This document shows positions 31,645 to 38,037 of a stretch of 64,000 nucleotides of DNA, piece after piece; positions within the stretch are counted from its first letter, which is position 1; each line of letters starts with the position of its first letter. The notes under the pieces were generated by a model. That model was given only the letters and a program-made list of their open reading frames with translations. It did no database searches and had not been told where the DNA came from. The DNA comes from a virus: positions 1-64,000 of IMG/VR virus record IMGVR_UViG_3300032092_000011. One strand, given 5' to 3'. The translations under genes and the position numbers were made by a program.

Positions 31645-31749
31645 ATTTCTTTAATTTCTTAGTTATTGGGGAATTTTTCAATCTTAATTTATATGGGAAA
31701 TTTTAAAGTTGTTTCCTAATCCAAGTACTTTAAGTACCTAAAGAAATTT

Positions 31750-32935
31750 TTGTACGCTAATACTCAACAGGGCCCACTAGGCCCATACCTAATAGTCCCG
31801 AGTCTAATACCCTCGCAACCGCCCTGAGGATCGTAACATGGGCCGATGGGCCGACTCTGAGGACCTTGTGCGACCCCCGACGGCAGTGAGGCTACTGGAC
31901 CACTTCAAGCACTCTTTTAATAGACCACTCTAACGACTCCAATGGGACCACCACACTCTCTTCTGAGTTCTATAAGAACTAATAAAAATAAAATCTCTCA
32001 ATGTTGTTTACAGTAATGGGAGTATAGTAAACAATTAGTGTTGTTCTAGAAGTGACGCACACTCACCACTCATAGATGGGCCCCTAGAGACCTTTGAGAC
32101 CTTGGGGCCCGAAGGGCTCTGTGATAGGGGCGGGCATCCTTTCCGGACCGGGAAAAAAACGGGCCCTGGGGAACATCAAAGTCCTATTAGGGCCCCTATA
32201 GTAGTCCAAGTTACAATGGGGACGGGCCCCATCTGGTCATCGCGGATTCTCTCTGCGCTTCTAGTTCTTATTATAACGGTTTTTTATTAGGTTAGGGGTT
32301 CTTTGGGCCCTCGGTCATGCTCTAAGGCTTGGGAGTGAATCTGGACGGACCGTGATAATGTGTGCACTTCTGTGAAAGTGTTTTGCTATATTGCTAATTA
32401 TTAGTAGTGATCTGTAGTGAAAGTCATGACCCTTGACTCCTGGACCCCTGCATGTCTACGAATTCGGGCCCCAGTGTTTACCCAGGAAATTGGCGCCCAG
32501 AGTCTGGGTACCGGTATACCCGCACCCTCTAGGACTCCGATGGCCTCTGAGCACCTGGACTCCCCATGTGCCTAGAAGCCTAGGCACCCTAGAGCCTCCC
32601 CTATTCGGGCGTTCCGTATCCGCTCTTCTATTACTCCTATACCTATAGGACTAGAAGTGTCTATAACGGACCACTAGGTGCCTACCTTACCTACTGAGCC
32701 TTCCTATGCGTCTATTAGCTCTATCTAAGCGGTTATTGGATTATTGGGCCGGCACGGGTAGATGACCACTGTGAGCTAGTGACCAGCTCACCACTAGGGT
32801 AGTGGCACGCCGGGGTGCACTCTAGGGTGAAAAAGTGCACCTGGAGTGTCACCTGGAAGCACTCCGGCAAGTGCTCCAGGAAGTGTTCTGGGAGTGCACT
32901 CCGGTAAGTGTTCCTGGAGTGATCACCGGGAGTGA
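31750..32935. other. GC-rich non-coding arm (left), rich in palindromes
   Basis: No credible ORF; eight GGGCCC sites at 31770, 32078, 32105, 32161, 32190, 32224, 32305, 32466; many CTAG; composition far from the genome average. Confidence 0.75.
32836..32935. repeat. array of ~8 degenerate 11-14 bp pseudo-palindromic units, CAC(T)CC(W)GG(R)AGTG
   Basis: CACCTGGAGTG, CACCTGGAAG, CACTCCGGCAAGTG, CTCCAGGAAGTG, TTCTGGGAGTG, CACTCCGGTAAGTG, TTCCTGGAGTG, CACCGGGAGTG in tandem. Confidence 0.7.
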
Positions 32936-33370
32936 TTATGCTGCTACTAACTCTTCGTTTTTAACGAAAGCTTTACTTGCCCATGTTTTAGCACCTACTA
33001 GTGAATATTGACGTTGGTCATACAGGGCAGTATTTAACCAATAAGAGTTAATAGTTCCTACAGTTAAGTCCATTAAGATAGCTTCGTCGATAACTGGAAT
33101 CTGTTTTCCTTTTTTAGCAAATACAGTTAACCAAATATCTGTACCTTCTGGGTTAAATTGCACTGTTTGTAGGGCACCTTTCTTAAAACCACTAATAAGT
33201 GTCTCAGGGTGCTTCATATAATGTTCATTGTCAAAGTCTCTACTATCACTAATAGTTAAGAAACCGGCACGACATTTAGTGATAAAACGGAATTTACCAG
33301 CAGTGTAACCTGACATAAAGTTAGATACGTGGATGTCTTTTTTGTTCGCTAAGATAATTGAATTGGTCAT
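32936..33370 (-). CDS. hypothetical early protein (start MTNSIIL)
   Basis: Behind an early-type promoter at ~33390-33432. Confidence 0.75.
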   Translation of the reverse strand: MTNSIILANKKDIHVSNFMSGYTAGKFRFITKCRAGFLTISDSRDFDNEHYMKHPETLISGFKKGALQTVQFNPEGTDIWLTVFAKKGKQIPVIDEAILMDLTVGTINSYWLNTALYDQRQYSLVGAKTWASKAFVKNEELVAA

Positions 33371-33459
33371 GAGTGGATGTTTTAATGTTATATGTAAATA
33401 TAAACAAAATTCTTCAAACGGTAAAACTTTTTTCAAAGTTTTTTCAAATTATTTTTCAT

Positions 33460-33486
33460 AAAAAAGGGTCCCTTTCGGGACCCTTT
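33460..33486 (-). terminator. intrinsic terminator
   Basis: AAAGGGTCCC-TTTC-GGGACCCTTT. Confidence 0.8.
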
Positions 33487-33519
33487 AAATGTTACCATTA
33501 GGTTTTTCTGCGTTGAGTC

Positions 33520-33756
33520 TTAGATAGTGGTCAAGGCAACATTTACATTACGACCGCGACCGCGATCATAAGCGGCATTCATAATACGAGAATTCTCATA
33601 TTTGCCGTTAAGAACATCACTCACATGTGTTGAACTATAACCAGTTTTTTCAGCGATGATAGTTACATCACCGTGACGTTTACGTTGATTATAATTTGCT
33701 AATTTTTGGGTGTAGCTTAATTTGTTATAGCTACTTGGTCTGTTAGAATTAAACAT
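33520..33756 (-). CDS. small helix-turn-helix DNA-binding protein (start MFNSNRP)
   Basis: GDVTIIAEKTGYSSTHVSDVLNG HTH pattern. Confidence 0.75.
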   Translation of the reverse strand: MFNSNRPSSYNKLSYTQKLANYNQRKRHGDVTIIAEKTGYSSTHVSDVLNGKYENSRIMNAAYDRGRGRNVNVALTTI

Positions 33757-33864
33757 ATATTTGTTGTTTTGTTGAATATTATATAGGGGCCCTAGGAAAA
33801 GTTTCACAAAAATATTTCACAAAATATTTTTTTATTTCATGGATTTTGTTTATATTTACATATG

Positions 33865-33976
33865 AAAAATAACAAGATGACATAATGCGACTAACACTCA
33901 CAGGGACTAACCTCCCGACAAGGGTTCGAACCTCCCCGGTTCGCAGAGGGTATACTCCGACCTGTTCTTTTTTTTA
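33865..33976 (+). ncRNA. candidate ~110-nt structured small RNA
   Basis: Lies between a promoter motif (TTGTTTATATTTACATA, 33846-33862) and a T-run; ACAGG/CCTGT closing stem, internal hairpins, GGTTCGAAC T-loop-like motif; no convincing ORF. Confidence 0.4.
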
Positions 33977-34039
33977 AAAAGACCTAGATGAGGTGCGTCA
34001 ATATAAAATTAATCAATTTTCTTGACATGGTAAAATAAA

Positions 34040-34124
34040 GTTATTAACAAAAAATGTTCATAACTTTGTGAAAATAATGTGAAAAAAGTTTTACCGTTTG
34101 GAGAATTATGTTTATATTTACATA
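34040..34124 (+). promoter_or_regulatory. early-type promoter with inverted pair of DnaA-box-like sites
   Basis: GTTATTAACA (34040) and TGTTCATAAC (34055), then AAAGTTTTACCGTTT-N-TGTTTATATTTACATA. Confidence 0.75.
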
Positions 34125-34143
34125 TAACAAATTAGCAATAACA

Positions 34144-34383
34144 ATGATTAATCTTTCTATCCAGGACAAATTCGACGGTTTAAACAAAATTGGTGACTTA
34201 CGTAACGCTATCGGTCAAGAGTTCAGTTATAACTTCTCTTCTACTTGCCGTGCTAAACTACTTAGTGTTAGCGAAGATGGTAACCGTTGTACTTTTCAAG
34301 AAGTTGAAGCATATGGTCGTAAACCTAAGCCCGGTGTTGGTACCGCAGCTAGTTGGTTGATCTGGAACTCTATGTTCTTCTAA
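34144..34383 (+). CDS. hypothetical early protein (start MINLSIQ)
   Basis: Behind promoter; high-expression codon bias (CGT, AAC, TTC). Confidence 0.7.
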   Translation: MINLSIQDKFDGLNKIGDLRNAIGQEFSYNFSSTCRAKLLSVSEDGNRCTFQEVEAYGRKPKPGVGTAASWLIWNSMFF

Positions 34384-34447
34384 TTGAAACCTTTTCTAAA
34401 TCTCATATATAATAATAGTAATTTTTAACAAAATAAACCAAACAAAC

Positions 34448-35596
34448 ATGGCAACAATTACAACCCTTTCAAACCAACTAGTTGAGCAACGTAAACAGGA
34501 AACTCTTAATGCTCAATCAATCCGTAAAACAGTCCCTTTCCGCGACATTAACCTTATCGATGACAAAACTATCGAATATAAAGGTACACGTATCGGTATT
34601 ACTAATGGATGTTTTAAGTCTCTATTGAAACTTATCGGTATGTCAAACCAGTTCGCTAAGAACTTCGAGTCATTATTTAACTCTGAAGCTAAAGCAACTT
34701 TTATTAACCGTATCAAAGATGCTATGGCATCTAACACCGGTCGTCTTAATGAAGTTACATTGGTTCTTTCACCGTTCAATAAAACTATCATTGGTATCAC
34801 CCGTAAAGCAACTGATCTTATTTCTAATGAGCAGTTCTTGGGAGTAGCTGAACGTATTATTGATCGTCAAGGTTTCGATGTTACTAACTGGTCAGTAGAC
34901 CCTACAAGCGGTATCGTCCAAATCAATGCATTTAACCCTAAAGCTACTTTCGAAGTTAACGGACTTAGCGATGAGGTTTTCACTGGAGGTATTACTTTCC
35001 GTAACTCACCTCTTCAAGGCTTCCAAGTTCTTCCATATGTAAACCGTATGTGGTGTACTAATGGTTTAACCACTTCACTTGCTGAAGAAGCTTACACTCT
35101 TAACTCTCTAGATTCAGTAACTATGGAGAAGTTCTTCGAACAACTTAACGAACTTCGTAAGAACAATTTTGCTCCAGTAAGTTTTGCTGATCGTGTTCGT
35201 AAAGCATCTAACACTCCTGCTTCACTTAATGAGATGCGCCAAGCATATAACCTCATCAACAAACACGTAGAGGACCAAGCAGATCGTTGGATCCCACTTA
35301 ATGAGAACCTTTCTGCTTACAAACGCAATGGTTTTGAAAATATGACTGTTGACCAAATGAAGAATGCTAAATCTAATCAGTCTCTATGGTCAGTAGTAAA
35401 TGGTCTTACTCACTTTGCAACTCATGCTCCTGAATTGATCACTTCTAACGTACAAGGTTACGATCAAACTCAGATGATGGTTCAAGCTGGTAACATCTTT
35501 GGTAAGAATCGTTTCGATCACGAAAACGATATGCCAAATCCGTTCGGTAATGACGCTTTGAACAACACGCTTCAAATCGGTTCACTACTTAACTAA
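34448..35596 (+). CDS. DUF932/DUF945-like protein
   Basis: GGITFRNS...RMWCTNGL and SLWSVVNGLTHFATH motifs; high-expression codon bias. Confidence 0.65.
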   Translation: MATITTLSNQLVEQRKQETLNAQSIRKTVPFRDINLIDDKTIEYKGTRIGITNGCFKSLLKLIGMSNQFAKNFESLFNSEAKATFINRIKDAMASNTGRLNEVTLVLSPFNKTIIGITRKATDLISNEQFLGVAERIIDRQGFDVTNWSVDPTSGIVQINAFNPKATFEVNGLSDEVFTGGITFRNSPLQGFQVLPYVNRMWCTNGLTTSLAEEAYTLNSLDSVTMEKFFEQLNELRKNNFAPVSFADRVRKASNTPASLNEMRQAYNLINKHVEDQADRWIPLNENLSAYKRNGFENMTVDQMKNAKSNQSLWSVVNGLTHFATHAPELITSNVQGYDQTQMMVQAGNIFGKNRFDHENDMPNPFGNDALNNTLQIGSLLN

Positions 35597-35616
35597 GTTT
35601 TGTTTTAATTGTTATG

Positions 35617-35642
35617 AAAGGGTCCGCAAGGACCCTTTTTTT
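35617..35642 (+). terminator. intrinsic terminator
   Basis: AAAGGGTCC-GCAA-GGACCCTTTTTT. Confidence 0.85.
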
Positions 35643-35743
35643 ATGAAAAAAAATCAAAAAAAGTGAAAAAAAGTGAAAAAAAGTTTTACCGTTTGAGAAA
35701 TTTTGTTTATATTTACATATCATTAATCGTTAAAGCAATATTT

Positions 35744-35974
35744 ATGAACAAATTAACTAAATTTTCGCCGATCTACAACACAGCCTTTTGTGTATTCTTC
35801 ATTTGGGTAGCCTATAGTACCGCTGCTGGAACTATCCAACAATACATTAAATTCGCCGGAATCGATAACGAGATCGCTTTCTGTTGTGTTGCTATGATGT
35901 TGGGAGCTATGTATTTCTACTTATCTGTATCTGACATTTTCGACGTAATCAAACGTTACCTTCAGAACAAGTAA
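35744..35974 (+). CDS. small 2-TM membrane protein (start MNKLTKF)
   Basis: Behind promoter at ~35678-35720; two hydrophobic helices. Confidence 0.7.
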   Translation: MNKLTKFSPIYNTAFCVFFIWVAYSTAAGTIQQYIKFAGIDNEIAFCCVAMMLGAMYFYLSVSDIFDVIKRYLQNK

Positions 35975-36057
35975 AAATGTTAATAACTTTTTGCAAAAAA
36001 GTTTTACCGTTTGAGAAATTATAGTTATATTTACATATCATTTAAAACATCCACATA

Positions 36058-37161
36058 ATGACAAGAGAACAATTCACAATTTCCGAAACCGCAACAGGTT
36101 ACATGTTAACAGAAGTTAGCAATCACAGGCAAGAATTTATCGAGCCTAGCCACCCTAAATTTGAATGGGTTTCTAAGAACCTAGGCCGTATCGTAAATAT
36201 TACCGAAGCCGGTCGTTGGAATAGCCAAAAAGATTACGAAAACCTATATGGCAACCAACCTAAATCACGTGGTAACCAAGAGGTAGCCACAGTTAAACCA
36301 AAGGTGGAGGTTAAATTAACCAAATTGGACGATCTAGATATTAACCCAGACTTGTTCGTACCACTTCCTACCAATACTATCTTTGACAAATTTGTCTCAG
36401 CTGAAGGTGGTTTCCTTCCCGGTTCAAATATCATGGCAGCAGGAGCTCCAGGTATTGGTAAGACAACTGTTCTCTTAGACCTCATCTCTAAACTAGATCA
36501 GGCCGGTAAGAAATGTCTCTTTATCTCTGCCGAGATGAACCGAATCGACATGGCCCGTTATCTTAAGCGTTTCCCTCACTGGGGCCAGTTACCTATCCTA
36601 TTCTTATCCGACTACGAAGAGTGTCCGAAAGAGGCAATCGAAAAAATCCTAGATGAAGGTTGGGATATAGTCCTGACCGACTCTTATACCGAAGTAAACG
36701 ACACGGTAAAAGAAGAGTGTAACCTTTCTCGTGGTAAGGTGGAGAAGTGGTTCCTAAACCTAATGTCCAGTAACAACGACGGTCATAATGCGGCCCGTAA
36801 GCATACAACCTTTATTACGATCCTACAGCTATCTAAAGGCGGTAACTTCGTCGGGTCGAATAAACTAAAACACATGACTACCGCGATGATGAACCTGGCT
36901 TGGGACGGTTCAGAAAACTCCGGTCAGCGTTATATGGAGTTTACTAAGAACCGCGTCGGCCAAGTAAATAAGAAACTCTATTTCGGTCTCCAAAACGGAG
37001 TTAGCTTCGACGAGGCCAGATACCTACGAGACCTGTATAACGACGAGATAGTCGAAGCAGAACGCGCACAGTTAGGTAAAGAAGCCGATGCCTTCGACAG
37101 GCTATTCGGTATCGGGGTAGAGGAGATAGAAGAATCCGTAGAAGAGAGCATAGAAGCCTAA
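36058..37161 (+). CDS. RecA-superfamily (RadA/Sms-like) ATPase
   Basis: GAPGIGKTT Walker A, LFISAEM, VLTDS Walker B, KGGNFVGSNKLKHM, KNRVG; own promoter at ~35995-36037. Confidence 0.85.
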   Translation: MTREQFTISETATGYMLTEVSNHRQEFIEPSHPKFEWVSKNLGRIVNITEAGRWNSQKDYENLYGNQPKSRGNQEVATVKPKVEVKLTKLDDLDINPDLFVPLPTNTIFDKFVSAEGGFLPGSNIMAAGAPGIGKTTVLLDLISKLDQAGKKCLFISAEMNRIDMARYLKRFPHWGQLPILFLSDYEECPKEAIEKILDEGWDIVLTDSYTEVNDTVKEECNLSRGKVEKWFLNLMSSNNDGHNAARKHTTFITILQLSKGGNFVGSNKLKHMTTAMMNLAWDGSENSGQRYMEFTKNRVGQVNKKLYFGLQNGVSFDEARYLRDLYNDEIVEAERAQLGKEADAFDRLFGIGVEEIEESVEESIEA

Positions 37162-37776
37162 CCGACCGGTTAGAGCCTCCAGGTAATTTGGGCCCAGAGT
37201 GGATGCTGGGCCCTTACCTGTGTCTGGCGGCTGGTAGCCTGATGAGTCTCCGGGGTGATGGTCTGGGATGGTGTGCCGGCCACCACTGCGTGAATAATAG
37301 TCCCGGAAGGTGCAAACGCCGTGGTGGGGACCTCCGGCACTCACCGGGTAGTGGCAGGTTTCCGGAGTGTGATTGCGCACCCTTTGGTTTAAGGGAACCT
37401 AGAGGACTACCTTGCGGGCTTGAACACTATATATCATGTTCTTCTACGTACGCGCGCGTGTAGGGATGGTAGGATCTTAAGACCAGTAGGAGTCGGTTAT
37501 GGCCTGGAGGCTTGGAGGGTAGGGACGGGACTTGCAGGGCCTAGAACGGGACGGGTCTTATATCTATATGCTGTTCTTCTATATCTGGATGGGTTGGGTC
37601 TTTACTTATATCCTTATTGTGCTTGTAGTACTTATCTAGGTTTCTTTTATTCTTATTTAGAATTTTATTTATTATATTGGGTATTGGGGGCACGGGTGGT
37701 TCTGGCTCTCCGGTGCCTAGTGATAGAAAAAGGGAGCCGGTTAGGACTCCCTCTTGGTTGTTGGGTTATCTGGGTT
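37162..37776. other. GC-rich non-coding arm (right)
   Basis: GGGCCC at 37190 and 37208, CCGG/CAC..GTG units, G-rich TAGG tract; shares GGGTAGTGGCA with the left arm. Confidence 0.7.
37727..37754 (-). terminator. intrinsic terminator-like hairpin
   Basis: AAAAGGGAG-CCGGTTAGGA-CTCCCTCTT. Confidence 0.55.
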
Positions 37777-38037
37777 TTAGGCTTGCGCCTTAGGTACTAG
37801 GATTGCCGGGACTGGATCAACCGGAGTCCAAGTGCTTGGACGGGTTCTGGTTGGTGGTTCAATCTCGCCAGTCTCTTCGTTATTCACTGGTAGACCTACT
37901 ATCTCTGGTTGATAAACATATACATCATGATTTGGATGCGCTGCGACTAGTCTCTCTACACTTCCTGGATAATGCTGTATCTGGTAAGTTATACCATTAA
38001 TTTCTTCTTGTTGATTATAGATTATTGTATATGACAT
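37777..38037 (-). CDS. hypothetical protein
   Basis: Last ORF of the minus-strand run, Pro-rich tail. Confidence 0.55.
   Translation of the reverse strand: MSYTIIYNQQEEINGITYQIQHYPGSVERLVAAHPNHDVYVYQPEIVGLPVNNEETGEIEPPTRTRPSTWTPVDPVPAILVPKAQA

What the first reader, a model, noticed from the sequence alone, without database searches (positions are those of the whole stretch)
31750..37776. Divergent early cassette bracketed by two mirror-like GC-rich non-coding arms
Seen: the only plus-strand genes of the window (34144-37161) and two minus-strand genes point outward from ~33.8 kb, with five early-type promoters in 2.7 kb and high-expression codon bias. Both outermost stop codons run straight into GC-rich non-coding DNA. 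Each arm has CCGG/CAC..GTG units next to the gene and then a tract that is G/TAG-rich on the outward strand. GGGTAGTGGCA occurs in both arms (32797, 37346). Cargo: HTH, DUF932-like protein, RadA-like ATPase, small membrane protein. Inference: a specialised chromosomal domain, such as a first-injected/terminal-repeat region with T5-like injection-stop or packaging signals, or a bidirectional origin/recombination module with its own binding proteins.
Basis: partly seen in the sequence, partly recalled or inferred. Interest (0 to 1): 0.8.

Follow-up and report, generated by a model that had tools for sequence, protein, structure and literature searches.

The report
GC-rich boundary zones around early cassette
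In a large uncultured water phage, the only block of genes that reads against all the others is fenced by two GC-rich gene-free stretches; these hold transcription stops and a late-gene start signal aimed back into the block, and show no sign of being genome ends, injection stops or a replication origin.

Summary
The window is part of a 110-kb fragment (42% complete) of a ~235-256 kb jumbo phage. In a complete relative, this cassette is the only multi-gene plus-strand block. Both outer genes run into gene-free DNA of ~51% GC, in a genome with 13% GC at fourfold sites. The arm-cassette-arm layout recurs in about 40-57 dereplicated relatives.

The "mirror" claim fails: the arms share no significant similarity, and the common 11-mer is near chance.

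The arms diverge at about the synonymous rate, apart from conserved islands. Those I can read are transcription punctuation:
- a covarying hairpin plus U-run after the ATPase gene (28 of 41 relatives);
- a bidirectional terminator;
- an outer promoter;
- the phage's late-gene upstream box, in 38 of 41 right arms, always pointing antisense into the cassette with no gene behind it.

T5-type injection-stop features were not found: no DnaA boxes, no shared inverted repeats, no extra conservation. There is no skew inflection, and I found no evidence for a terminus. Contigs break here because co-occurring strains differ (881-nt end overlap at 93% identity).

Best reading: transcriptional boundary zones with late antisense shut-off of the cassette. 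Why the arms stay GC-rich is unexplained.

Other notes of this scan on the same genome had already flagged parts of this region.

The parts
31688..31716 (-). Outer edge of the left arm: promoter GGAAAC-N17-TATAAA for the KTSC-domain gene (start 31644) and the genes beyond it
   Evidence: Read from the sequence. It has the same form as the TGAAAC-N17-TATAAT sites before the HTH and p382 genes. The block 31690-31760 is nearly invariant in four relatives.
31745..32935 (.). Left GC-rich gene-free arm (GC 0.51)
   Evidence: No ORF above 71 aa and stops in all frames. No Rfam or tRNA match. 77% identical to L016, whose p382 is 97% identical in protein. A GC-rich stretch at this position is present in 30 dereplicated relatives.
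31770..31784 (-). GGGCC-N5-GGCCC hairpin at the outer end of the left arm; a weak terminator candidate for leftward transcripts
   Evidence: Read from the sequence. The 120-nt fold window starting at 31720 has z = -3.3 on the minus strand. The terminator role is inferred.
32095..32245 (-). Conserved island I1: invariant GATGGGGACGGGCCCCAT hairpin and an invariant A7 run (U7 on the minus strand, 32153-32159) preceded by a GGGCCCU...AGGGCCC stem; a probable minus-strand terminator in some relatives
   Evidence: Alignments of 4-6 relatives. Folds show the stem before the U-run in the window's sequence; a stem can be drawn by hand in L016 and L099, and none is convincing in L026.
32340..32460 (.). 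Conserved island I2 (ACGGACCGTGATAATGTGTG...AAGTCATGACCC) with one hairpin that keeps pairing through CAC/GTG to GTG/CAC swaps; function unknown
   Evidence: nhmmer hits in 8 loci. Alignment.
32800..32935 (.). Array of about eight ~12-nt GGAGTG / CACTCC / AAGTG half-palindromes directly after the p166 stop codon
   Evidence: It is the only such cluster in 110 kb and is present in 6 distinct relatives. It is the strongest fold signal of the region, z -4 to -6 on both strands.
32936..33370 (-). p166 gene (144 aa from the conserved ATG); fold not recognised
   Evidence: Alignment of 18 homologues. AlphaFold model pLDDT 77. No PDB match by Foldseek.
33386..33446 (-). Class I promoter copy driving p166
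   Evidence: 92% complementary to the copy at 34069-34129. Core GTTTATATTTACATAT.
33462..33486 (.). GGGTCCC-TTTC-GGGACCC hairpin flanked by A-run and T-run: terminator after the HTH gene
   Evidence: Read from the sequence. Inverted-repeat partner of the terminator at 35617-35642 (pairs I5 and I6).
33520..33756 (-). Small helix-turn-helix protein (78 aa from ATG 33756), with its promoter GTGAAA-N18-TATAAT (as scored by the scan) at 33778-33807
   Evidence: phrog_925, E 1e-4. Translation. Promoter scan 10 of 12.
33806..33975 (+). Class I promoter (33806-33870) followed by a ~105-nt structured small RNA with no ORF
   Evidence: nhmmer hits in 23 loci. Stems covary, e.g. GGGAU/AUCCC, GAAUC/GAUUC and GGAGC/GCUCC. 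No Rfam match.
34068..34383 (+). Class I promoter and a 79-aa gene (34144-34383)
34384..35596 (+). Promoter TTGAAA-N18-TATAAT (as scored by the scan) and p382, a conserved 382-aa protein of unknown fold, possibly a distant DUF932 relative
   Evidence: Model pLDDT 83. No PDB match; best Z 6.6. DUF932 leads.
35617..35642 (+). Intrinsic terminator (GGGTCC-GCAA-GGACCC followed by a T-run) after p382
   Evidence: (pair I5) and the sequence.
35663..35974 (+). Class I promoter and a small protein (from M at 35744, ~76 aa) with two hydrophobic segments
35981..37161 (+). Class I promoter and a RadA/RecA-like ATPase (36058-37161). GC at its fourfold sites is 0.35 against 0.13 genome-wide, and GC rises through its 3' half.
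   Evidence: Pfam KaiC-type ATPase 34.5 bits (cut-off 26.6). RadA 5lkm, E 9e-9. GC figures.
37162..37776 (.). Right GC-rich gene-free arm (GC 0.52 up to the terminator; G>C on the plus strand)
   Evidence: In 41 dereplicated relatives: GC 0.51 +/- 0.04 and positive skew in 40. Minus-strand ORFs here are not frame-conserved.
37190..37213 (+). T1: hairpin GGGCCCAG-AGTGGATG-CTGGGCCC just after the ATPase stop codon
   Evidence: Stems covary and the loop GUGGAUG/GUGGUG is conserved. A hairpin plus U-run is found within 100 nt of the stop in 28 of 41 relatives; the window's own copy has only UU.
37386..37470 (-). Conserved island R2: orphan late-type promoter box GATATATAG (plus-strand CTATATATC, 37427-37435) facing the cassette. 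It lies within the invariant GGCTTGAACACTATATAT and next to an alternating purine-pyrimidine hairpin (37444-37463).
   Evidence: The box is present in 38 of 41 right arms and never in the other orientation. The same box sits upstream of minus-strand genes, including tail sheath and fibres.
37727..37760 (.). T2: bidirectional terminator, A-run, GGGAG-N10-CTCCC, T-rich tail, ending the leftward late operon (last gene 37777-38037)
   Evidence: Compensatory stem changes in relatives. Fold z -4 to -5.

Best explanation
The two arms are long gene-free boundary zones at the seam of an otherwise one-directional jumbo-phage genome.

Shown:
- The cassette is the only block transcribed against the rest of the genome.
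- Each outward-reading operon of the cassette ends in an arm.
- The right arm has a covarying stem-loop (in most relatives with a U-run) directly after the ATPase gene. At its far end, a bidirectional terminator also ends the incoming tail-fibre operon.
- The left arm ends at the promoter of the next leftward operon.
- Almost every relative carries, about 180-530 nt beyond the ATPase stop, one copy of the phage's late-gene upstream box. It is always oriented toward the cassette and has no gene behind it.

Inferred:
- Early in infection, host polymerase fires the clustered early promoters outward, and the arms stop these transcripts before they enter neighbouring operons.
- Late in infection, the orphan box launches a C-rich untranslated transcript antisense through the ATPase gene and the rest of the plus-strand cassette. 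This would shut the cassette off by polymerase collision and RNA pairing.

The GC-rich make-up is under selection or a biased process: 51% against 13% at fourfold sites, while the sequence itself turns over at about the synonymous rate. Its purpose is not established. The simplest idea is spacer DNA kept free of the AT-rich promoter and terminator words of this phage and its host, and rich in stable hairpins.
For: - Sole plus-strand block in a complete relative. Layout conserved in relatives.
- T1 hairpin plus U-run in 28 of 41 relatives, with covarying stems. T2 shows compensatory changes.
- Outer promoter at 31688-31716 lies in a nearly invariant block.
- The late box is strongly strand-biased: 14 to 1 and 24 to 1 in the two genomes.
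- It lies 3-70 nt upstream of minus-strand ORF starts in 10 of 14 and 20 of 24 cases. These include tail sheath, a tail fibre and, through a GTG start, the collagen fibre gene.
- The box is present in 38 of 41 right arms and 0 of 41 in the reverse orientation. Background density is about 0.2 per kb.
- No conserved ORF lies behind it.
- The arms diverge like fourfold sites yet hold 0.51 GC against 0.13.
- Antisense transcription as a timing device in a virulent phage has a published precedent, PAK_P3 (PMC4933390).
Against: - There are no expression data. The 'late' label rests on which genes carry the box. Distances to start codons are bimodal (3 nt and about 21-24 nt), so the box may not be a simple promoter.
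- The window's own T1 has a poor U-run.
- A C-rich untranslated RNA is an ideal Rho substrate, so the orphan transcript might end before it reaches the cassette.
- Punctuation accounts for at most a few hundred of the ~1,800 arm bases. It does not explain islands I1 and I2, the 12-nt array, or why the spacers must be 0.6-1.2 kb long and GC-rich.
- Fold z-scores are unremarkable over most of the arms.
- The left arm has no clade-wide motif.
Confidence: 0.5

Rival explanations
1. The arms are arrays of novel structured non-coding RNA genes, or long structured 3' tails of the early mRNAs. Their products would act early in infection as regulators, decoys or protective ends. On this view, GC-richness is simply what structured RNA looks like in an AT-rich genome.
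For: - In this genome, the other GC-rich gene-free tracts are reported as tRNA and small-RNA arrays (earlier notes).
- The cassette itself holds a proven covarying small RNA.
- Islands I1 and I2 are far more conserved than their surroundings, and one I2 stem shows compensatory swaps.
- G-U pairs in the 37444-37463 hairpin fit the plus strand.
Against: - No Rfam match in the window or in seven relatives, even at E up to 0.5-1.
- Fold z-scores over most of the arms are near zero.
- Most arm sequence diverges at the synonymous rate with frequent indels.
- Islands I1 and I2 are limited to one subclade.
- No promoter copies were found inside the left arm.
- RNAalifold on 4 sequences gave almost no covariation signal.
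Confidence: 0.22
2. The arms are recombination hot spots flanking a recombinase cassette. Frequent exchange between co-infecting strains, with repair biased toward G and C, would raise GC in the arms and the adjoining gene ends and make the region a mosaic junction.
For: - Mosaic identities across the cassette between the window and close relatives. With L016: p382 97%, ATPase 95%, p166 57%. With L025: fourfold-site identity 0.97 in p382 against 0.80 in the ATPase.
- The two ends of one assembly overlap at 93% identity here, where its end otherwise matches a sister assembly (L002) at 99%.
- Many contigs end in the arms.
- GC is raised at fourfold sites of the ATPase (0.35 against 0.13) and in flanking genes, which fits a regional process not confined to the non-coding DNA.
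- The cassette encodes a RadA/RecA-like ATPase.
Against: - From my own knowledge, GC-biased gene conversion has not been shown in phages.
- p382, in the middle of the cassette, has very low fourfold GC (0.08).
- Contig breaks are expected at any long weakly constrained stretch.
- The strand asymmetry of the right arm (40 of 41) is not predicted by this model.
- No breakpoint mapping was done.
Confidence: 0.13
3. One reading: the cassette is a terminal-repeat or first-injected region, or a replication origin. The arms would carry injection-stop, packaging or initiator-binding signals, with the 12-nt array as iterons.
For: - The cassette lies at the seam where one-directional phage genomes often have their ends.
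- There is a unique array of ~12-nt half-palindromes next to a gene of unknown function and near an HTH gene.
- Contig ends are enriched around the region.
- An ATPase of the RecA/DnaB superfamily is present.
Against: - No DnaA boxes in the arms.
- No inverted or direct repeat shared by the arms.
- The arms are not extra-conserved.
- No skew inflection.
- The array is limited to one subclade.
- The complete relative closes as a circle, and sister assemblies start at different points.
- One contig break is shown to be strain heterogeneity.
- Breaks 3.4-5.9 kb to the right fall where the collagen-repeat fibre genes lie in the window.
Confidence: 0.1

Closest known systems
Antisense transcription as a temporal switch in virulent phages (PAK_P3 asRNAs, PMC4933390; lambda oop RNA as cited there)
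   Same: A promoter with no gene behind it points into genes of the opposite temporal class. The proposed effect is to silence that class at the wrong time.
   Different: In PAK_P3, the antisense RNAs are made early and cover late structural genes, and they were seen by RNA-seq. Here a single late-type box faces the early cassette, is conserved in 38 of 41 relatives, and is only inferred from sequence.
Intrinsic (hairpin plus U-run) and bidirectional terminators between convergent operons
   Same: T1 and T2 have GC stems, covarying pairs and U-runs or A/T-flanks, and sit exactly at gene ends.
   Different: They are embedded in 0.6-1.2 kb of GC-rich spacer that ordinary convergent operons do not need. 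T1 keeps a conserved loop sequence (GUGGAUG/GUGGUG), which a plain terminator would not require.
Phage T5 injection-stop region in the left terminal repeat (bioRxiv 10.1101/866236)
   Same: A long untranslated, repeat- and palindrome-rich stretch lies next to very early genes.
   Different: The T5 region lies in a 10-kb terminal repeat. It has a 131-bp inverted-repeat pair and eight DnaA boxes, and it is more conserved than its neighbouring genes. None of these was found here.
GC-rich islands used to find structured RNAs in AT-rich genomes
   Same: Gene-free DNA of ~51% GC in a 35% GC genome, some covarying hairpins, and a proven small RNA nearby.
   Different: There is no family match. Most of the sequence is unconstrained, and fold scores are mostly ordinary.

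Membership tests
T5-type first-step-transfer / injection-stop region | Lies inside a long direct terminal repeat at a physical genome end | tested here: inconclusive
   No repeat of the window's start is found elsewhere in the record. The complete relative closes as a circle with a 55-nt overlap, and sister assemblies start at different places. One break is strain heterogeneity. No read data were available, so a collapsed repeat cannot be excluded.
T5-type first-step-transfer / injection-stop region | Pair of long inverted repeats shared by two untranslated regions | tested here: not met
   The longest inter-arm inverted match is 17 nt at 88%. blastn between the arms gives nothing better than E 0.67.
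T5-type first-step-transfer / injection-stop region | Ordered set of DnaA boxes (TTWTNCACA) | tested here: not met
   Six matches in the 64-kb window, none in either arm; fewer than in shuffles.
T5-type first-step-transfer / injection-stop region | Untranslated region more conserved than neighbouring ORFs | tested here: not met
   The arms are 77-78% identical to L016, about the identity at fourfold sites (0.68-0.82), while the proteins are 95-97% identical.
Replication origin | Inflection of cumulative GC skew | tested here: not met
   The skew falls monotonically over 110 kb, with only a local plateau where the coding strand flips. Skew here is confounded with gene orientation.
Replication origin | Iterons next to an initiator gene, conserved with it | tested here: inconclusive
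   The 12-nt array is unique in the genome but found only in the window's subclade plus L034. In some relatives it lies 370-870 nt from the p166 homologue. No initiator was recognised.
Intrinsic terminator | GC-rich stem-loop followed by a U-run at a gene end, with the stem kept by compensatory changes | tested here: met
   T1: 28 of 41 relatives, with covarying stems; the window's own copy has a short U-run. T2: A-run, stem, T-rich tail, with compensatory changes in 4 relatives.
This phage's late-gene upstream box, (A/G)ATATATAG on the gene strand | Sequence and orientation as in the copies upstream of structural genes | tested here: met
   CTATATATC at 37427 on the plus strand. All but one copy in each of two genomes share this orientation. 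Copies precede tail sheath and fibre genes.
This phage's late-gene upstream box, (A/G)ATATATAG on the gene strand | A gene start 3-70 nt downstream | tested here: not met
   No minus-strand ORF follows at 37427 or at the homologous site in G004. Candidate ORFs are not frame-conserved. Hence 'orphan'.
Known structured RNA families (Rfam 15) | Covariance-model match | tested here: not met
   No match at gathering score in the window. Nothing credible at E up to 0.5-1 in the region or in seven relatives.
RecA superfamily, RadA/Sms-like ATPase | RecA-type ATPase core (sequence match to RadA and to the KaiC-type ATPase family) | tested here: met
   PF06745 at 34.5 bits, above its 26.6 cut-off. RadA 5lkm residues 70-269, E 9e-9.
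RecA superfamily, RadA/Sms-like ATPase | RadA zinc finger and Lon-like C-terminal domain | not tested
   The protein is 367 aa and only the core matched. The N-terminal 100 residues are unassigned.
DUF932 (PF06067) | Profile match above the Pfam cut-off | tested here: inconclusive
   The window's protein does not match. Two of 17 homologues match at E 0.009. Atlas neighbour clusters carry PF06067 in 15-18% of members. No fold match.

The most novel reading that the evidence does not exclude
The GC-rich arms are a functional class of their own: composition-defined elements whose sequence is free to drift. Candidates are insulators that keep a counter-oriented early cassette electrically separate from the rest of a 250-kb one-directional genome, or the footprint of GC-biased recombination around a phage recombinase module. 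In this reading they work together with a late antisense promoter that is conserved across the clade.
Probability: 0.2. Interest if true: 0.75.

Novelty: new variant of a known kind. Interest (0 to 1): 0.5.

Why it matters
This gives a concrete, testable picture of how an uncultured clade of ~250-kb aquatic phages might time its single counter-oriented early gene block: stops on both sides, and a conserved late start signal firing back into it.

It also exposes a composition puzzle. About 1.8 kb of DNA drifts as fast as silent sites yet is held at 51% GC, where silent sites sit at 13%. Selection on base make-up, as opposed to sequence, is rarely this clear in a phage.

In practice, the region is a hot spot where metagenome assemblies of these phages break. 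That matters for anyone binning or closing such genomes.

Tried and rejected
- Recoded or decayed coding sequence: all six frames have stops. The arms have no similarity to the collagen-repeat genes or to anything else in the genome (the tblastx run there returned nothing and may not have run at all). Minus-strand ORFs in right arms are not frame-conserved.
- Known RNA families and tRNAs: none.
- GGGCCC as a conserved binding site: strongly clustered in this genome but not in relatives.
- Rho-loading tract downstream of both early operons: C>G on the transcript holds only for the first ~190 nt of the left arm, and the right arm is G-rich in the sense direction.
- A T7-like promoter reading of GAACACTATA: other subclades lack CAC; only TATATAT is shared.
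- Mirror copy of the late box in the left arm: the only left-arm look-alike of the R2 core was one 4-mismatch (14 of 18) match in L024; the box is not present clade-wide.
- Whole-arm consensus folds on 4 sequences, both strands: almost no covariation.
- Cultured relatives: none found by DNA or by the ATPase protein in the phage collection.
- Fold assignment of p382 and p166: good models but no convincing match in the solved-structure library. Foldseek gave E > 0.03; the wide VIA-align search, run for p382 only, gave Z at most 6.6.
- Contig ends as physical termini: ends are spread through the arms rather than at one site, and one is a 93%-identity overlap.

Full report
WHAT THE RECORD IS

The window is the first 64 kb of a single 109,841-base virus record with 35% GC. 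The record is classed as linear and about 42% complete. Relatives found through the cassette's ATPase include contigs of 234-256 kb. One of them, G004 (256,444 bases), has direct terminal repeats and 100% estimated completeness. This is therefore a fragment of a jumbo phage. Its relatives come from freshwater and marine metagenomes. No cultured relative was found by DNA or protein search of the phage collection. Earlier notes of this scan attribute it to a Bacteroidota host; I did not test that.

CHECKING THE OBSERVATION

Strand layout. Nearly all ORFs of the record are on the minus strand. The only convincing plus-strand genes are:
- 34144-34383;
- 34448-35596 (p382);
- about 35744-35974, a ~76-aa protein with two hydrophobic segments;
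- 36058-37161 (the ATPase).

Two minus-strand genes point the other way: a 78-aa helix-turn-helix protein at 33520-33756 and p166 at 32936-33370. In G004, my ORF map gives a single multi-gene plus-strand block in 256 kb, which is the cassette.

To the right of the cassette lie small genes and then collagen-repeat tail-fibre genes. To the left lie a KTSC-domain gene, a ClpC-like ATPase and others. The cassette therefore sits at the seam between the end of the structural genes and the start of non-structural genes.

Promoters. A ~65-nt element with the core GTTTATATTTACATAT occurs five times between 33386 and 36045. About 19 copies exist in the 110 kb, so the element is clustered here but not specific to the cassette. 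A second type, TGAAAC-N17-TATAAT, precedes the HTH gene, p382 and the first gene beyond the left arm.

The arms. The left arm (31745-32935) has GC 0.51, and the right arm (37162 to about 37725) has GC 0.52. Stops occur in all six frames. There is no tRNA and no Rfam family.

The 'mirror' claim does not hold:
- blastn and repeat searches find nothing significant between the arms.
- The shared GGGTAGTGGCA is on the plus strand in both arms, and 4 of 100 shuffles gave at least 2 hits.
- G>C on the outward strand is a property of the right arm only.

The GGGCCC clustering is real: 10 of 12 genomic copies lie in the arms. It is not shared by relatives.

CONSERVATION

The arm-cassette-arm layout, with 45-60% GC arms, recurs in the IMG/VR and metagenome relatives. 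In 41 dereplicated right arms:
- the first 300 nt have GC 0.51 +/- 0.04;
- the plus strand is G-rich in 40.

In 30 dereplicated left arms, the richest 500-nt window averages 0.50 GC.

The sequence itself turns over quickly. The closest relative, L016, has p382 97% and ATPase 95% identical in protein. Its arms are only 77-78% identical in DNA, with many indels. Identity at fourfold-degenerate sites of the two genes is 0.82 and 0.68. On average, then, the arms drift at about the silent-site rate.

Genome-wide GC at fourfold sites is only 0.13. A freely drifting stretch should therefore be very AT-rich. The 51% GC must be held by selection on composition or by a biased process. The rise in GC begins inside the ATPase gene (fourfold GC 0.35; 0.42-0.47 GC over its 3' half) and also touches genes beyond the left arm.

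WHAT THE CONSERVED ISLANDS ARE

Right arm, reading from the ATPase stop codon:

1. T1 hairpin (37190-37213). The stem covaries between relatives and the loop GUGGAUG/GUGGUG is conserved. A hairpin followed by a U-run lies within 100 nt of the stop in 28 of 41 relatives; the window's own copy has a weak U-run. I read this as the terminator of the rightward early operon.

2. Island R2 (37386-37470). It contains the invariant GGCTTGAACACTATATAT.
   - A k-mer census of 41 arms found TATATATC in 27, with at most 10 for any 8-mer in shuffles. Allowing any base before TATATAT and C or T after it, 38 of 41 arms have the box.
   - With the narrower patterns, 38 of 41 have it on the plus strand and none in the opposite orientation. 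The median position is 258 nt after the stop.
   - Genome-wide, the same box is almost exclusively on the plus strand: 14 to 1 in this record and 24 to 1 in G004. On the gene strand it reads (A/G)ATATATAG.
   - It lies 3-70 nt upstream of minus-strand ORF starts in 10 of 14 and 20 of 24 cases. These include the tail sheath gene and a tail-fibre gene of G004, and also the 1131-aa collagen-fibre gene of this record through its GTG start.
   - I therefore read it as the phage's late-gene upstream element, probably a promoter.
   - The arm copy has no ORF behind it in either genome. Candidate ORFs there shift frame between relatives.
   - It is thus an orphan pointing into the cassette, antisense to the ATPase gene. 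The untranslated RNA it would make is C-rich and G-poor.

3. An alternating purine-pyrimidine hairpin (37444-37463). Its sequence varies but the alternation is kept, also in a distant subclade. I have no explanation for it.

4. T2, a bidirectional terminator (37727-37760), with compensatory stem changes. It ends the incoming late operon.

Left arm:
- Its outer edge carries the promoter of the next operon (31688-31716), inside a nearly invariant block.
- Its inner edge has an array of ~12-nt half-palindromes (32800-32935). This array is unique in the genome, shared by six distinct relatives, and gives the strongest fold signal of the region.
- Between them lie islands I1 and I2, conserved in one subclade only.
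- I1 has an invariant U7 run on the minus strand. RNAfold places a stem directly before it in the window's sequence. A stem can be drawn by hand in L016 and L099 but not convincingly in L026.
- I2 has one hairpin with compensatory swaps.
- No 8-mer is shared across left arms above shuffle levels.

The centre of the cassette also holds a ~105-nt small RNA (33871-33975) behind its own promoter. It is conserved in 23 loci with covarying stems.

CONTIG ENDS

- Of 80 metagenome contigs carrying the ATPase, 34 end within 750 nt after its stop codon, and left ends pile up 2-5.3 kb upstream.
- Several large IMG/VR contigs also end in or near the cassette.
- The ends are spread through the arms rather than falling at one position.
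- For one 234-kb assembly, the two ends overlap by 881 nt, covering the promoter and the ATPase 5' part, at 93% identity. The same contig end otherwise matches a sister assembly (L002) at 99%. That is the signature of co-assembled strain variants.
- Ends 3.4-5.9 kb to the right fall where the collagen-repeat fibre genes lie in the window.
- Three near-complete assemblies of one species begin at different map positions, with the terminase always 107 kb from the cassette.

I found no evidence for physical ends here. Without reads, I cannot exclude a collapsed terminal repeat.

The T5 injection-stop region is defined by four features (bioRxiv 10.1101/866236): a position in the terminal repeat, a 131-bp inverted-repeat pair, eight DnaA boxes, and conservation above that of its neighbouring genes. 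Here:
- no DnaA box lies in either arm;
- no repeat is shared between the arms;
- the arms are not extra-conserved.

Cumulative GC skew shows no inflection, but skew here mostly follows gene orientation.

THE PROTEINS

- The ATPase has a RecA-type core closest to RadA.
- p382 and p166 gave confident models (pLDDT 83 and 77) with no convincing match among solved structures.
- p382 has only weak DUF932 leads.
- These results neither support nor exclude a recombination or replication role for the cassette.

BEST READING

The arms are boundary zones that separate a counter-oriented early cassette from its neighbours. Terminators for the outward early operons and for the incoming late operon are shown by sequence and covariation. 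The orphan late box is shown by sequence, orientation and conservation.

That this box fires late and silences the cassette by antisense transcription is inference. There is a published precedent of the opposite polarity in PAK_P3 (PMC4933390).

This reading covers only part of the arm length. It leaves unexplained the GC-rich make-up, the strand asymmetry of the right arm, islands I1 and I2, and the 12-nt array.

Three rivals remain:
- novel structured RNAs;
- recombination hot spots with GC-biased repair, supported by the mosaic identities and the GC rise at silent sites of the ATPase;
- the origin or terminus idea, which I rate lowest.

I put the boundary-zone reading at about 0.5.

VERDICT

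The finding is a real, clade-conserved and partly explained architecture. It is a new variant of known kinds (terminators, late promoter, antisense control) with a genuine composition puzzle attached.

Noticed in passing
window 33806-33975 (+): A ~105-nt small RNA behind its own early-type promoter. It is conserved in 23 related loci, with at least two covarying hairpins and an invariant tail AGAGGGUAKACUCCGACCUG. There is no Rfam match.
   Followed up: partly
window 37444-37463 and homologous sites in L001, L017, L018, L009, L045, L049: A 14-16 nt tract of strictly alternating purine-pyrimidine (CG/TG/TA steps) next to the orphan late box. It keeps the alternation while its sequence changes, even in distant subclades. 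This could be Z-DNA-prone DNA or a G-U-rich hairpin; it is unexplained.
   Followed up: no
G000 and G004 genome-wide (for example window 24898, 20693, 10262, 57338): The box (A/G)ATATATAG lies on the gene strand upstream of many genes. Distances to the start codon are bimodal (3 nt, or about 21-24 nt). In the 3-nt class, the start codon would lie upstream of the expected transcript start.
   Followed up: partly
L010 / G004 170.4-173.2 kb: In the complete relative, the p166 homologue and a 77-aa gene are present as three tandem copies with ~1045-bp spacing. They are on the plus strand, so the whole cassette (9 genes) reads one way there.
   Followed up: no
L016:3061-3534 (-) and L048:1754-2218 (-): The tblastn matches to p166 in these two relatives contain two in-frame stop codons each, so the gene may be broken there. 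L016 is otherwise the closest relative (p382 97% identical).
   Followed up: no
window 36058-37161: GC at fourfold sites of the ATPase gene is 0.35, against 0.13 genome-wide and 0.08 in the neighbouring p382. GC climbs toward its 3' end, so whatever keeps the arm GC-rich also acts on silent sites of this gene.
   Followed up: partly
right arms of 26 of 41 relatives, 2-45 nt after the ATPase stop in most (absent from the window): The 8-mer TTTTAATT (often extended to TTTTAATTAC) is conserved across most subclades just after the ATPase stop codon and before the T1 hairpin. Its function is unknown.
   Followed up: no
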